64,000 bases of DNA from NCBI RefSeq assembly GCF_988242995.1, contig NZ_OZ547043.1; one strand, 5' to 3'. Made by a program: the position numbers. This document shows, one piece after another, positions 15,630-18,600 of this stretch (the first letter of the stretch is position 1; every line of letters begins with the position of its first letter).

Positions 15630-18600
15630 TTAAACAAAAAAACGAAGCAAGCATACGCCTGATGGCGGTCCAAAAAAAAGAGTCATCTTGCCTAAGAGTA
15701 TTGGCAGGATGGTGAGATTGAGCGACAATCGAGTTACACCGTCGCTTAAAGTGACGGCATAATAATAAGAATATGAAATTCCTCTTTGACGGGCCAATAG
15801 CGATATTGGCCATTTTTTTAACGCAACATCTGCGGCAAATTCCCTTCTCCATACAGGTGTAGTGCACCGACTGCGACCACATAGCGCCCCGGCGGCATGG
15901 CGCATAATTTGTCCCGCCAGGCGAGATTTCGCTGATGCATCAGCACATCGTACAGCGACTGACTGAACGTATTAGGCAGCGTTATTTCATTATTTTGCGG
16001 CGGCGCATTCAGCCACCAGCTCATCATTTGTTGCAGCAACCGTGCATTGGTGTGCCAGTGGGTCAGCGTATCGTCCAGCAGCGCCAGTCCGTTGTCAGGG
16101 AGCTGGAGCAACATGGCAATCTGGTTTTCTGCCCCTTCCAGTTCAATCACGGGTTTATGTTGTTGCTTCGCCGCCTGCAATAGCTGGTAATCGATACCGT
16201 ATTCTGCCCGCAGCCCCAGTTTTTGTGCCTGCGTCGCCTGAAGAACCATCGCGATTTGCCACAGCGGTTGGGTAGAAAAGAGTGAGGTAGAAATGCCCAT
16301 CTCCTGGCTAATGTGCTGCAGGTTTTGGAGTTGCTCCTCGCTAATGCGCTCTTCCAGCGCCTCGCAGGCAGGCAAATTAGCAAAAGGCGTATCGCTGGTG
16401 GAAACATCCGCCTCGACGATCAGCGCATCGGCGTTTTTGAGCTTTTTGAGCAAACGGGTGGGCAGGGGAGCCATATCGTGGCTGCCCATATGAATACTGC
16501 CAATCAGATGAAAATGGCGATTGCCGGGAAGAGAGATATCGATAGCAGGCCAGGTGTAATGATTACCGCGCAGCGCGGCCCAAAGCGTTTTTACCCGGTA
16601 CAACAGATCCATACGACCTCCCTTTGTGAAATATCATGCTAGCGCGCGGGGAGGGATGGCGCAAATGGAGTTATGAGGCTTGTTCAGTGGTAGCTTAAAT
16701 ATGATCGAAAAATTGTTTTTGCTTTGAAACGAAAGACTGCACCGGTGTTGGTGGCGTCAAAATCGCCGAGGCGTTCCCTGAAGGCCGGGGCAGCCCACAT
16801 GGATGTGGGCTGAGGGCGCGTTTTACAGGGATGTTACCTCGCGCCCGACCCGGTAGCCGCAAGGGATAAGCTGAGGGTACCGCGCAGCGGCGATTTTGTT
16901 CGCCAGAGCCCGGGGGTGCAGGGGGCGGCGGCGATTGGCCGCCCCCTGCGCGCTCCCTGCGCCAGTCACTTTATATGGCATGACTCATAAAAGGAGCGCA
17001 ACAAGAACTGGATCTCACAAACGCATTAAGTAAATACCAATCACTCTTTCGGTTTAAACCGCAGCAACCGGTTAGCGTTACTCACTACGGTAATCGACGA
17101 GAGCGCCATTGCCGCTCCGGCAACCACCGGGTTAAGCAGTGTTCCAGTGAACGGCCACAAAATACCGGCGGCGACCGGAATACCAATGCTGTTGTAGATA
17201 AACGCACCGAGCAGGTTCTGCTTCATATTGCGCAGCGTTGCGCGGGAAATCGCGAGCGCATCTGCAACACCCATCAGGCTATGGCGCATCAGGGTAATCG
17301 CCGCGGTTTCAATGGCAACATCACTGCCGCCACCCATCGCAATACCGACATCCGCCTGGGCCAGCGCTGGCGCGTCGTTAATGCCGTCGCCCACCATTGC
17401 CACCTGACGTCCTTCACTTTGCAGACGTTTGATCGCTTCGGCTTTACCGTCCGGTAGCACCCCGGCTATCACCTCATCAATCCCTGCTTCTTTGGCGATC
17501 GCATTGGCGGTGGTTGGGTTATCCCCGGTTAGCATCACCAGACGATATCCCGCTTTATGCAGGCGTTGCAGCGCCGCCACGCTATCACTACGCAACGGAT
17601 CGCGTACAGCCAGCAGGGCTACCGCTTTCCCGTCAACCGCCAGCAGCACAGGCGTTGCCCCTTGCGATGCCTGAGCAGTAATCTCCGCTTCGATAGCTTT
17701 GGTATCAACCTGTTGCTCATTTAACAACGCCTGATTACCCAGCAACAACGCATGACCTTCTGCTTCACCGCTCACACCCAGCCCGCGCAATGTGCGGAAA
17801 CCGTTGACCTGCGGTAGCTGCATATCACCTGCTTTATCGAGGATCGCCCGTGCCAGCGGGTGGCTGGAACCTTGCTCCAGCGCCGCCGCCAGACGCAATG
17901 CTTGCGCTTCATCAACATCAGCAAATGTTTTTACTGCGACAACCTGCGGCTTCCCTTCGGTCAGCGTCCCGGTTTTATCGAACACCACGGTGTCGAGCGT
18001 ACTGGCGCGTTGCAGCGCGTCGGCGTCCCGCACCAGCACACCAAACTCAGCCGCCCGCCCGACGCCCGAAATAATCGACATCGGCGTCGCCAGTCCCAGC
18101 GCACACGGACAGGCGATAATCAGCACCGTGGTGGCAATCACCAGGGTATAGACAATCTGCGGTGCCGGACCAAAGAAATACCAGATTGCCGCACTGATCA
18201 GCGCAATGACTACCACCACCGGCACAAACACAGCGGAGATTTTATCCGCCAGTTGACCGATTTCTGGCTTGCTGCTCTGGGCCTGGCGCACCATGCGAAT
18301 GATCCGTGACAGCGTAGTATGGCTGCCGACCGCACTGGCACGAAACAGCACACTGCCGTCCTGTACCACTGTCCCGGCATGGACGCTATCGCCTTCGCCT
18401 TTTTGCTGCGGGATAGGTTCGCCCGTCAGCATCGCTTCATCCAGCCACGCTTCGCCTTGAGTAATCTCACCATCTACCGGCACACGGTCGCCGGTCGTCA
18501 GGCGCAGTAACATACCTGGCTGAACATCTGCCAGCGGCACGTTTTTTTCACCTTCGTCGGTGACCAGGCGCGCCGTCGGTGGGGTTAAATCGAGTAATTT

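What the first reader, a model, noticed from the sequence alone, without database searches (positions are those of the whole stretch)
16613..17040. ybaP-copA spacer lacks ybaQ and contains GC-rich inverted repeats
From memory K-12 encodes a small HTH protein (ybaQ) between ybaP and copA. Here the 428-bp spacer has no ORF of 60 aa or more and instead contains strong GC-rich palindromes (cagcccacat-gg-atgtgggctg at ~16791-16812; cagggggcggc-ggcgattg-gccgccccctg at ~16919-16948) and reiterated gctgaggg / ccctgcgc motifs. This could be a repeat element, a structured RNA, or a deletion scar.
Basis: partly seen in the sequence, partly recalled or inferred. Interest (0 to 1): 0.4.

Follow-up and report, generated by a model that had tools for sequence, protein, structure and literature searches.

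The report
Known TRIP1e/RRS repeat replacing ybaQ
The GC-rich palindromic spacer between ybaP and copA is a copy of the E. coli TRIP1 / "replication risk sequence" repeat, already published at this exact site as TRIP1e, so the finding is real but not new.

Summary
The window is E. coli. The core, 16736-17006 (+), is one copy of a ~270-bp repeat found about three times in nearly every E. coli genome. This repeat is TRIP1 (Rudd 1999), also called RRS, the "replication risk sequence" (Pham et al. 2023/2024). Li et al. 2024 already named the ybaP-copA copy TRIP1e and placed it 124 bp upstream of ybaP, which matches here. The published G-quadruplex motif is present exactly at 16912-16931 on the + strand. 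KOPS polarity indicates that this strand is the lagging-strand template, the orientation in which RRS elements trigger post-replication ssDNA gaps.

Not found in the papers I read:
- TRIP1e replaces ybaQ, the BIMEs and the copA terminator hairpin. It is one of at least five alleles at this spacer.
- The TRIP1 core has the layout of the Rfam TwoAYGGAY motif. The window copy scores 31.5 bits, below the threshold of 43, but a full-length homologue in Pseudocitrobacter passes at 49.2 bits.
- The two loops resemble the CsrA SELEX consensus.

Verdict: already known, low to moderate interest.

The parts
15818..16612 (-). ybaP (TraB/GumN family), the left flanking gene
   Evidence: 264-aa ORF. It is annotated ybaP in the genome that is identical over the spacer, Ecol_316.
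16613..16687 (.). ybaP-proximal part of the spacer, shared with the K-12 allele and the other alleles
   Evidence: Alignments A1 and A5. BLAST homology with K-12 ends at window 16684.
16688..16735 (.). Left flank specific to the TRIP1e allele. It has no counterpart in the ybaQ, toxin-antitoxin or deletion alleles.
   Evidence: A1 and A5. Matches to other TRIP1 loci start only at query position 124-130, which is window 16736-16742.
16736..17006 (+). TRIP1e copy of the TRIP1/RRS repeat. Li et al. define it as 265 bp; the BLAST homology block here is 271 bp.
   Evidence: It is 94.1% identical to K-12 TRIP1a and 90.8% to a TRIP1c copy. It starts 124 bp from the ybaP start codon, as published for TRIP1e. 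It is the only copy in the window.
16753..16904 (+). Domain closed by a long helix P1 (arms 16753-16768 and 16888-16904). This is the TwoAYGGAY-like core.
   Evidence: MFE and consensus folds. The Rfam RF01731 match covers 16757-16896 on the + strand at 31.5 bits, E 0.022, against a gathering score of 43. Compensatory changes in P1 appear in the TRIP1d-like copies.
16791..16812 (+). Hairpin 1, with the conserved ACAUGGAUGU at its tip (MFE fold: 9-bp stem, 4-nt loop).
   Evidence: Inverted repeat I9. 95% of its columns are invariant across the 10 enteric copies. The stem covaries across 102 distinct family cores.
16814..16846 (+). Hairpin 2, with stem GGGCGCG/CGCGCCC and the apical motif UACAGGGAUGU
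   Evidence: 82% of its columns are invariant. The apical 12-mer UUACAGGGAUGU matches 11 of 12 positions of the CsrA SELEX consensus RUACARGGAUGU (consensus taken from PMC4347634).
16912..16931 (+). The published RRS G-quadruplex motif GGGGGTGCAGGGGGCGGCGG
   Evidence: Exact single match in the window, with 0 expected by chance. The motif and its polymerase-blocking activity are described in PMC10592627.
16918..16949 (+). 12-bp GC hairpin that overlaps the G4 tract.
   Evidence: Inverted repeat I4, 100% complementary. In TRIP1c two positions change on both arms together (arms GGCGGC/GCCGCC become GGAGGA/TCCTCC), and the hairpin is kept.
16950..16999 (+). 3' hairpin GCGCUCC...GGAGCGC. It looks like a Shine-Dalgarno sequence with an anti-SD partner but is not a ribosome-binding site.
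   Evidence: In TRIP1d-like copies the helix is kept as CGUUCAC/GUGAACG through compensatory changes, so the 'AAAGGAG' is not conserved. The window copy also lacks the downstream ATG.
17007..17040 (.). Right flank specific to the TRIP1e allele. The copA terminator hairpin found in the other alleles compared is absent here.
   Evidence: In A5 the other alleles carry GGATGCGCC...GCGCATCC before the copA stop. The window does not. It also uses AAA GAG TGA instead of AAG GAA TAA for the last codons of copA.
17041..19545 (-). copA (Cu+ P-type ATPase), the right flanking gene
   Evidence: 834-aa ORF, annotated copA, about 97% identical to K-12 over the block containing copA.

Best explanation
The spacer holds TRIP1e, a full-length copy of the enterobacterial TRIP1 repeat, also known as RRS ('replication risk sequence'). 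In about 6% of complete E. coli genomes it occupies the ybaP-copA spacer in place of ybaQ (an orphan HigA-type antitoxin), the BIMEs downstream of ybaQ, and the copA terminator hairpin.

Shown here:
- Identity and position of the element.
- An exact copy of the published G4 motif.
- A very stable fold on both strands, kept by compensatory substitutions.
- The G-rich strand is the + strand. KOPS polarity indicates that this strand has the leading-strand sequence, so it is the lagging-strand template.

Inferred from published experiments on the 91-94% identical copies at lysO and dusC, and on copies placed elsewhere in the chromosome:
- When the replisome unwinds this DNA, the G4 and hairpin structures on the lagging-strand template block polymerase.
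- An Okazaki fragment is left unfinished and a post-replication ssDNA gap of up to about 2 kb forms, onto which SSB and RecA load.
- Those authors propose that the gap acts as a topological swivel.

This strain would therefore carry an extra RRS about 400 kb on the origin side of RRS-lysO, in the active orientation. As a ~270-bp repeat it is also a substrate for homologous recombination with the other copies; TRIP1a/1e rearrangements have been reported.

A further local inference concerns transcription. copA and ybaP lie on the same strand, and here they are no longer separated by the copA terminator hairpin or by an opposing gene. Read-through from copA into ybaP is therefore more likely than in K-12.
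For: - Repeat family: 5425 of 5426 genomes have matches, with a median of 4 places per genome. 346 genomes carry the whole 428-bp spacer.
- The other copies lie between lysO and aqpZ and between yohP and dusC. These are the TRIP1a/TRIP1c = RRS-lysO/RRS-dusC loci of the literature.
- The published TRIP1e position (124 bp from the ybaP start, 38 bp from the copA stop, 94% identical to TRIP1a) agrees with 16736 - 16612 = 124 and with my 94.1% identity.
- The G4 motif is exact at 16912-16931 on the + strand.
- KOPS count is 6 on the + strand and 0 on the - strand, and overall GC skew is +0.010. Gene order is the same as K-12 at about 508 kb.
- ssDNA folding gives z = -7.1 and -6.5.
- 11 of 80 consensus pairs show compensatory changes.
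- TRIP1a/1e recombinants have been reported.
Against: - No experiment has been done on the TRIP1e copy or in a strain that carries it.
- The replichore assignment rests on 6 KOPS sites and on synteny, not on a whole genome.
- Within the family the G4 tract is less conserved (55% invariant columns) than the two apical hairpins (95% and 82%). TRIP1d-like copies weaken the G4 motif but keep the hairpin. Selection may therefore act on something other than, or in addition to, the G4.
- The same two-loop core occurs far outside enterobacteria, in elements where I did not look for a G-rich tail. This hints at a second, unknown ligand or function.
- The predicted copA-ybaP read-through is untested.
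Confidence: 0.85

Rival explanations
1. The element acts as a structured RNA of the TwoAYGGAY class, read from the + strand. Its two apical GGA hairpins would bind a conserved RNA-binding protein. CsrA is the obvious candidate, so the RNA would act as a small CsrA decoy or a CsrA-controlled transcript. This is not exclusive of the DNA-level role.
For: - Every TRIP1 copy tested gives Rfam TwoAYGGAY as the best hit over the element, always on the same strand: 31.5, 30.6, 29.6, 29.1 and 28.4 bits.
- A full-length TRIP1 homologue in Pseudocitrobacter passes the gathering score, 49.2 against 43.
- The apical motifs ACAUGGAUGU and UACAGGGAUGU keep the ACA and GGA that are invariant in the CsrA SELEX consensus RUACARGGAUGU.
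- A CsrA role for TwoAYGGAY has been proposed before (PMC4333381).
- The two hairpins are the most conserved part of the element.
- Non-Watson-Crick cells in the predicted pairs are G.U on the + strand 43 times and A.C 6 times.
Against: - The window copy is below the Rfam threshold.
- No sigma-70-like promoter and no intrinsic terminator was found on either strand.
- Sequence upstream of the element is not conserved between loci.
- Flanking gene orientation differs between copies: antisense to both neighbours at lysO-aqpZ and here, but downstream of yohP on the same strand at dusC.
- The G.U excess is biased, because the structure was predicted on the + strand. G.T is also the most tolerated mismatch in DNA.
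- No expression or CLIP data were available.
Confidence: 0.2
2. The spacer is an inert deletion scar left when ybaQ was lost. The palindromes would be leftover REP/BIME or random GC-rich sequence.
For: - ybaQ is absent, and the locus is clearly unstable.
- True ybaQ-lacking alleles exist with 171-bp and 245-bp spacers.
Against: - The 271-bp core is a complete copy of a conserved repeat, 91-94% identical to the E. coli TRIP1a and TRIP1c copies at other loci.
- It does not match the K-12 REP units, and there is no naRNA4/BIME hit inside the spacer.
- The real deletion allele keeps the last codons of ybaQ and the copA terminator hairpin. The window keeps neither.
Confidence: 0.02
3. The element is, or once was, a small non-autonomous mobile element (MITE-like) that inserted here. 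Its long closing helix would be the terminal inverted repeat.
For: - Presence varies between strains at five fixed loci.
- In the wider family the two-loop core is multi-copy within genomes and enclosed by 20-30-bp near-perfect inverted arms, for example in Marinobacter, Lysobacter and a gammaproteobacterial MAG with more than 10 copies.
Against: - Compared with the empty and other alleles, TRIP1e is not a clean insertion. Both junctions differ, 48 and 34 bp of unique flank come with it, no target-site duplication is seen, and even the last copA codons differ.
- Each TRIP1 type is tied to one locus.
- No transposase is associated with it.
- The flanks show no extra divergence that would point to import from another lineage.
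Confidence: 0.12

Closest known systems
TRIP1e (Li et al. 2024, Genes 15:236, PMC10888264)
   Same: Same locus, position, size and orientation: 124 bp upstream of the ybaP start, downstream of the copA stop, about 265 bp, 94% identical to TRIP1a, and found in a minority of strains (232 of 6725 there; 346 of 5426 complete genomes here).
   Different: Nothing material; this is the same object. ybaQ is never mentioned in that paper's main text, so the replacement of ybaQ, the BIMEs and the copA terminator is not noted there. Rfam and CsrA are not mentioned either.
RRS-lysO / RRS-dusC, which are TRIP1a / TRIP1c (Pham et al. 2023 NAR, PMC10287960; Pham et al. 2024, PMC10592627; Kusi-Appauh et al. 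2026 bioRxiv)
   Same: 91-94% identical sequence, an identical G4 motif, the same predicted fold, and the G4 strand on the inferred lagging-strand template.
   Different: The location is different: about 508 kb in K-12 coordinates, roughly 1.08 Mb from dif rather than 650 kb, and not paired symmetrically. This copy is found in only some strains and has not been tested experimentally.
Rfam RF01731 TwoAYGGAY RNA motif (Weinberg et al. 2010, PMC2864571)
   Same: A long closing helix encloses two adjacent hairpins whose loops carry AYGGAY-type sequences. It is multi-copy within genomes and occurs in Gammaproteobacteria. The Psychromonas seed sequences carry the same ACAUGGAUGU and UACAGGGACGUA loops.
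   Different: The window copy scores 31.5 bits, below the gathering score of 43. Its second loop is AGGGAU (purine at position 2). It has extra hairpins inside the multiloop and an added G4/GC-hairpin and 3' hairpin tail. In E. coli a DNA-level function has been demonstrated, whereas TwoAYGGAY is filed as an RNA of unknown function.
BIME/REP elements (naRNA4 in Rfam)
   Same: GC-rich palindromic intergenic repeats. They occupy this same spacer in the K-12 allele.
   Different: There is no sequence similarity and no naRNA4 hit in the spacer. TRIP1 is about 270 bp and present in 1-5 copies, not about 35 bp in hundreds of copies.
CsrB/CsrC/RsmY/RsmZ CsrA-sequestering sRNAs
   Same: GGA-containing hairpin loops that match the CsrA consensus.
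   Different: Only two such loops are present, against many in those sRNAs. No BarA/UvrY-type promoter or terminator was found. There is no evidence of transcription or binding.

Membership tests
TRIP1 / RRS repeat family | High sequence identity over the ~220-270-bp unit to TRIP1a (lysO-aqpZ) and TRIP1c (yohP-dusC) | tested here: met
   94.1% identical to K-12 TRIP1a and 90.8% to a TRIP1c copy over 16736-17006.
TRIP1 / RRS repeat family | Type TRIP1e: located 124 bp upstream of the ybaP start and ~38 bp downstream of the copA stop | tested here: met
   The homology block starts at 16736 and the ybaP start codon is at 16612. The block ends at 17006 and the copA stop is at 17041.
TRIP1 / RRS repeat family | G-quadruplex motif GGGGGTGCAGGGGGCGGCGG on one strand | tested here: met
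   Exact match at 16912-16931 on the + strand.
TRIP1 / RRS repeat family | G4 strand is the lagging-strand template (the active orientation) | tested here: met
   KOPS count is 6 on the + strand and 0 on the - strand, GC skew is +0.010, and synteny places the locus at about 508 kb on the K-12 right replichore. This is an inference from polarity signals, not from a full genome.
TRIP1 / RRS repeat family | Triggers lagging-strand ssDNA gaps with RecA/SSB loading | not testable with these tools
   Needs ssGap-seq or an in-vitro replisome assay. Published only for the lysO and dusC copies and for ectopic copies.
Rfam RF01731 TwoAYGGAY | Score at or above the curated gathering threshold (43 bits) | tested here: not met
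   31.5 bits, E 0.022 in a 2.5-kb search. Other E. coli and enteric copies score 28.4-30.6 bits. A full-length homologue (L046 2218-2281) does pass at 49.2 bits.
Rfam RF01731 TwoAYGGAY | Two terminal loops, each containing AYGGAY | tested here: inconclusive
   Loop 1 is AUGGAU, which meets the definition. Loop 2 is AGGGAU, or AAGGAC in TRIP1c, with a purine at position 2. Rfam seed members from Psychromonas also have ACAGGGACGU or AUCAGGGAUGA.
Rfam RF01731 TwoAYGGAY | Large P1 helix closing the two hairpins | tested here: met
   The P1 arms are 16753-16768 and 16888-16904. The helix is kept with compensatory changes in TRIP1d-like copies. The description of P1 is in Weinberg's supplement.
BIME / REP (naRNA4) | Match to the REP/BIME consensus | tested here: not met
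   naRNA4 hits in the window lie at 9982-10059 and 50830-50907, not in the spacer. The K-12 REP block has no counterpart in the window spacer.
ybaQ / HigA antitoxin gene | An ORF homologous to YbaQ between ybaP and copA | tested here: not met
   tblastn best E-value is 3.6 anywhere in the window. No ORF of 60 aa or more lies in the spacer.
CsrA-sequestering sRNA (CsrB/C type) | An independent transcription unit with many GGA hairpins and demonstrated CsrA binding | not testable with these tools
   Only two GGA loops are present, and no promoter or terminator was predicted. Binding and expression need experiments.

The most novel reading that the evidence does not exclude
TRIP1/RRS is the enterobacterial branch of the Rfam 'TwoAYGGAY RNA' motif. 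That motif is in fact a widespread, multi-copy, long-helix-closed element of Gammaproteobacteria and some Clostridia, with two near-invariant apical loops (ACAUGGAUGU and UACARGGAYGU) that match the CsrA consensus. None of the papers I could search makes this connection.

If it holds, one of two things follows. Either RRS-like programmed gap or structure elements are much more widespread than enterobacteria, and TwoAYGGAY is a DNA-level element wrongly filed as an RNA. Or RRS elements also work as RNAs or through a conserved loop-binding protein, which the G-quadruplex model does not explain.
Probability: 0.5. Interest if true: 0.6.

Novelty: already known. Interest (0 to 1): 0.3.

Why it matters
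As a finding it mostly confirms published work. The element, its family, and even this exact copy (TRIP1e) have been described, and a replication-level function has been shown for its paralogues.

It still has some practical value. Natural strains with a third, correctly oriented, full-length RRS about 400 kb from RRS-lysO are ready-made material for testing two questions. Do RRS elements act anywhere in the chromosome? Can an extra copy substitute for the conditionally essential pair?

The side result may matter more. The most conserved part of RRS is not the G4 but a two-hairpin core shared with the TwoAYGGAY motif across Gammaproteobacteria. That would point to a conserved ligand or structure that the current G-quadruplex model does not address.

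Tried and rejected
- **Small ORF or leader idea.** In TRIP1a and TRIP1c the 3' end reads AAAGGAG-N9-ATGATG, which looks like a ribosome-binding site followed by a start codon. I rejected this. The window copy has no ATG, the downstream 'ORFs' differ between loci (9 aa and 27 aa), and in TRIP1d-like copies the AAAGGAG is replaced by compensatory changes that keep a helix.
- **Plasmid-borne copies.** 12 matches lie on plasmids. The two I examined (H38, H60) are plasmid records carrying chromosomal segments, poxB-macA and ushA-copA, not a mobile copy.
- **Import from a divergent lineage.** Mismatch density against K-12 is not higher next to the replaced segment, so there is no support.
- **TRIP1e as a clean insertion.** Comparison with the 171-bp, 245-bp and toxin-antitoxin alleles shows no filled/empty pair and no target-site duplication.
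- **Replication-orientation bias in the wider two-loop family.** The local GC skew of the flanks is positive for 51 copies and negative for 68, p = 0.14. This is uninformative.
- **Promoter and terminator scan of 16500-17150.** Nothing on either strand.
- **17-nt inverted repeat 16723-16739 / 17042-17058 bracketing the element.** It is 82% complementary, the same quality as many other pairs in the list, so I treated it as chance.
- **Looking for a third allele through hit H71.** This landed on an unrelated REP near yjjV.
- It exceeded the size limit.
- **Literature searches for CsrA CLIP data at aqpZ or lysO.** Nothing usable was found.
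Full report
**Observation.** The window is E. coli; the 428-bp query is 100% identical to many complete genomes. ybaP is 15818-16612 (-) and copA is 17041-19545 (-). Nothing of 60 aa or more is open in the 428-bp spacer, and tblastn with K-12 YbaQ finds nothing in the whole window. The two palindromes are exact: 16791-16800 / 16803-16812 and 16918-16929 / 16938-16949. The GCTGAGGG repeat is also real. The region folds far better than shuffled controls, both as RNA (z = -4.7 and -5.4) and as ssDNA (z = -7.1 and -6.5).

**What it is.** BLAST against 5,426 complete E. coli genomes shows that only 346 carry the whole spacer. However, positions 124-394 of the query (window 16736-17006) match 90-95% in essentially every genome, with a median of 4 places per genome including the ybaP flank. 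The other places are lysO-aqpZ and yohP-dusC. The literature identifies these:
- This is the TRIP1 repeat of Rudd (1999).
- It was rediscovered as the 222-bp 'replication risk sequences' RRS-lysO and RRS-dusC (PMC10287960, PMC10592627).
- Li et al. 2024 (PMC10888264) surveyed 6,725 genomes and defined five locus-specific types.
- One of them is TRIP1e: 265 bp, 94% identical to TRIP1a, 124 bp upstream of the ybaP start and 38 bp downstream of the copA stop, present in 232 genomes.

My coordinates (16736 - 16612 = 124) and my identity to K-12 TRIP1a (94.1%) agree. The finding is therefore this published object. There is only one copy in the window.

**Anatomy.** The + strand folds as follows:
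- A domain closed by a long helix, with arms 16753-16768 and 16888-16904. It contains a small hairpin, hairpin 1 (16791-16812, apical motif ACAUGGAUGU), hairpin 2 (16814-16846, apex UACAGGGAUGU) and a further arm.
- A 12-bp GC hairpin (16918-16949) that overlaps the published G4 tract GGGGGTGCAGGGGGCGGCGG. That tract is present exactly at 16912-16931 on the + strand.
- A 3' hairpin (16950-16999).

I aligned ten enteric copies: TRIP1a, c, e and d-like, E. albertii and Pseudocitrobacter (A4). In that alignment 11 of 80 consensus pairs show compensatory double changes. These include the GC hairpin in TRIP1c, the closing helix, and the 3' hairpin in d-like copies. The structure is therefore under selection. 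The apparent Shine-Dalgarno sequence in the 3' hairpin is not conserved as sequence, only as a helix. The best-conserved segments are hairpin 1 (95% invariant columns) and hairpin 2 (82%). The G4 tract reaches only 55%.

**How it most likely works.** Pham et al. showed the following for the lysO and dusC copies and for copies moved elsewhere:
- The G4-bearing strand blocks Pol I, II and IV.
[quoted passage not shown] - Removing or inverting both changes genome supercoiling.

A 2026 preprint reports gap formation at nearly every replisome encounter in vitro. In the window, KOPS motifs are 6 on the + strand and 0 on the - strand, and the gene order matches K-12 at about 508 kb. FtsK-orienting sequences are polarised on the leading strand; that is established knowledge, not tested here. 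It makes the + strand the leading-strand sequence and hence the lagging-strand template. The G4 is on that strand, the same orientation as TRIP1a in K-12 (L004). I therefore infer that TRIP1e is an extra, active-orientation RRS about 400 kb on the origin side of RRS-lysO. This step is inferred, not shown. As a repeat it is also a recombination substrate; TRIP1a/1e and TRIP1e/1c recombinants were reported. A MAG contig with TRIP1e next to copA plus a dusC fragment may be another case, or a misassembly.

**The locus.** The papers I read do not mention ybaQ. Among 5,426 genomes:
- ybaQ is present in 4,834.
- About a quarter of an evenly spaced sample (14 of 60 rows) have a RelE/ParE-family toxin gene upstream of ybaQ. 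That is an intact higBA-like module, of which K-12 keeps only the antitoxin.
- There are also a 171-bp allele in which ybaQ is deleted down to its last codons, and a 245-bp allele with a REP.

TRIP1e is not a clean insertion into any of these. Homology with them stops at about 16687 on the left. On the right it resumes only at the copA stop. The copA terminator hairpin (GGATGCGCC...GCGCATCC) that the other alleles compared share is missing, and the last two codons and stop of copA are written differently (AAA GAG TGA against AAG GAA TAA). The flanks show no extra divergence, so the origin of the replacement is unresolved. One consequence I infer is that copA and ybaP, which lie on the same strand, are now separated only by the reverse complement of TRIP1e. 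That strand forms strong hairpins but has no U-tract.

**A connection not found in the papers I searched.** Rfam's best match to the core is TwoAYGGAY (RF01731) on the + strand, at 31.5 bits against a gathering score of 43, E 0.022. The other TRIP1 copies behave the same way, scoring 28.4-30.6 bits. By Rfam's own criterion the window copy is therefore not a member. Three observations nevertheless tie the two together.
1. The layout matches the motif's description in Weinberg's supplement: a large closing helix and two hairpins with AYGGAY-type loops. The Psychromonas seed sequences carry the same ACAUGGAUGU and UACAGGGACGUA loops.
2. In Pseudocitrobacter faecalis a TRIP1 copy sits back-to-back with a second, diverged element. 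That element aligns with TRIP1 over its full length, and its 3' end is nearly identical to TRIP1d-like copies (A6). Its two-hairpin core passes the Rfam threshold at 49.2 bits.
Most are multi-copy, in Marinobacter, Lysobacter, Arenimonas, Acinetobacter, Shewanella, Psychromonas, Vibrio and some Firmicutes MAGs. All 21 representative loci I folded (15 of them non-enteric) show the two hairpins, and in nearly all of them a long helix of roughly 20-30 bp closes the pair. The stem of hairpin 1 covaries with all four Watson-Crick pair types, 79-96% paired against 39-47% in shuffles.

The loops keep the ACA and GGA that are invariant in the CsrA SELEX consensus RUACARGGAUGU. A CsrA role for TwoAYGGAY has been suggested before. 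A full-text search for 'AYGGAY' returned 17 papers (12 listed after merging duplicate copies). None of those listed concerns TRIP1 or RRS, and the TRIP1 and RRS papers I read do not mention TwoAYGGAY, Rfam or CsrA.

**RNA or DNA?** For an RNA reading:
- Conserved loops.
- Compensatory pairs.
- An excess of G.U over A.C on the + strand, 43 against 6. This is biased, because the structure was predicted on that strand.

Against it:
- No promoter or terminator.
- Upstream sequence is not conserved between loci.
- Orientation relative to neighbouring genes is inconsistent.
- There are no expression data.

The wider family shows no orientation bias relative to local GC skew. I keep the RNA/CsrA reading as a secondary, non-exclusive hypothesis at about 0.2.

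**Verdict.** The feature is already described in the literature as TRIP1e of the TRIP1/RRS family. Interest is low to moderate. The TwoAYGGAY link and the ybaQ/copA-terminator replacement are the only additions.

Noticed in passing
window 22064-47844 (ORFs 22373-23728, 23831-44605, 44609-46771, 46768-47943): A 25.8-kb segment absent from K-12 lies between ybaT and cueR. It encodes a TolC-family protein, a 6,924-aa BapA-related adhesin (annotated siiEA in Ecol_316), and a type I secretion ATPase and HlyD adaptor.
   Followed up: partly
window 16613-17040 compared with L001, L131, L132, L133: The ybaP-copA spacer has at least five alleles in E. coli: a RelE/ParE toxin gene plus ybaQ; orphan ybaQ plus BIMEs (K-12); a 171-bp ybaQ-deletion allele; a 245-bp REP allele; and TRIP1e. 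K-12 ybaQ is thus the surviving antitoxin of a higBA-like module.
   Followed up: partly
L046 1868-2135 (-) and 2160-2400 (+): Pseudocitrobacter faecalis carries two diverged TRIP1-type elements back-to-back in inverted orientation. The second also has a G-rich hairpin tail and passes the Rfam TwoAYGGAY threshold.
   Followed up: partly
loci L009-L128 (genome-contig scan): The two-loop core ACAUGGAUGU ... UACA(G/U/A)GGA(C/U)GUA, usually enclosed by a long (roughly 20-30 bp) helix, is multi-copy in many Gammaproteobacteria. One gammaproteobacterial MAG and Marinobacter azerbaijanicus each have 10 or more copies. Most of the copies scanned at Rfam's gathering threshold did not reach it.
   Followed up: partly
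L045 1-700: A 2.8-kb MAG contig has TRIP1e next to copA. On its other side are a 53-bp dusC-side fragment and a partial inverted TRIP1. This is either a TRIP1e/TRIP1c recombinant or a misassembly.
   Followed up: no
window 15736-15819 (+): The ChiX (sroB) sRNA gene abuts the 3' end of ybaP, as in K-12.
   Followed up: no
window 9982-10059 (+), 50830-50907 (-), 1995-2059 (+): There are two BIME-type naRNA4 matches and the dnaX frameshift element. All are ordinary E. coli features.
   Followed up: no
window 56001-64000: GC skew is +0.077 here, against a range of -0.01 to +0.02 in the rest of the window. The cause was not examined.
   Followed up: no
L129 ~1850-1995 (K-12 putP-efeU): TRIP1b keeps the 3' hairpin, the G4/GC hairpin and the 5' half of the closing helix. 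It has lost both AYGGAY-type hairpins and the 3' half of the helix.
   Followed up: no
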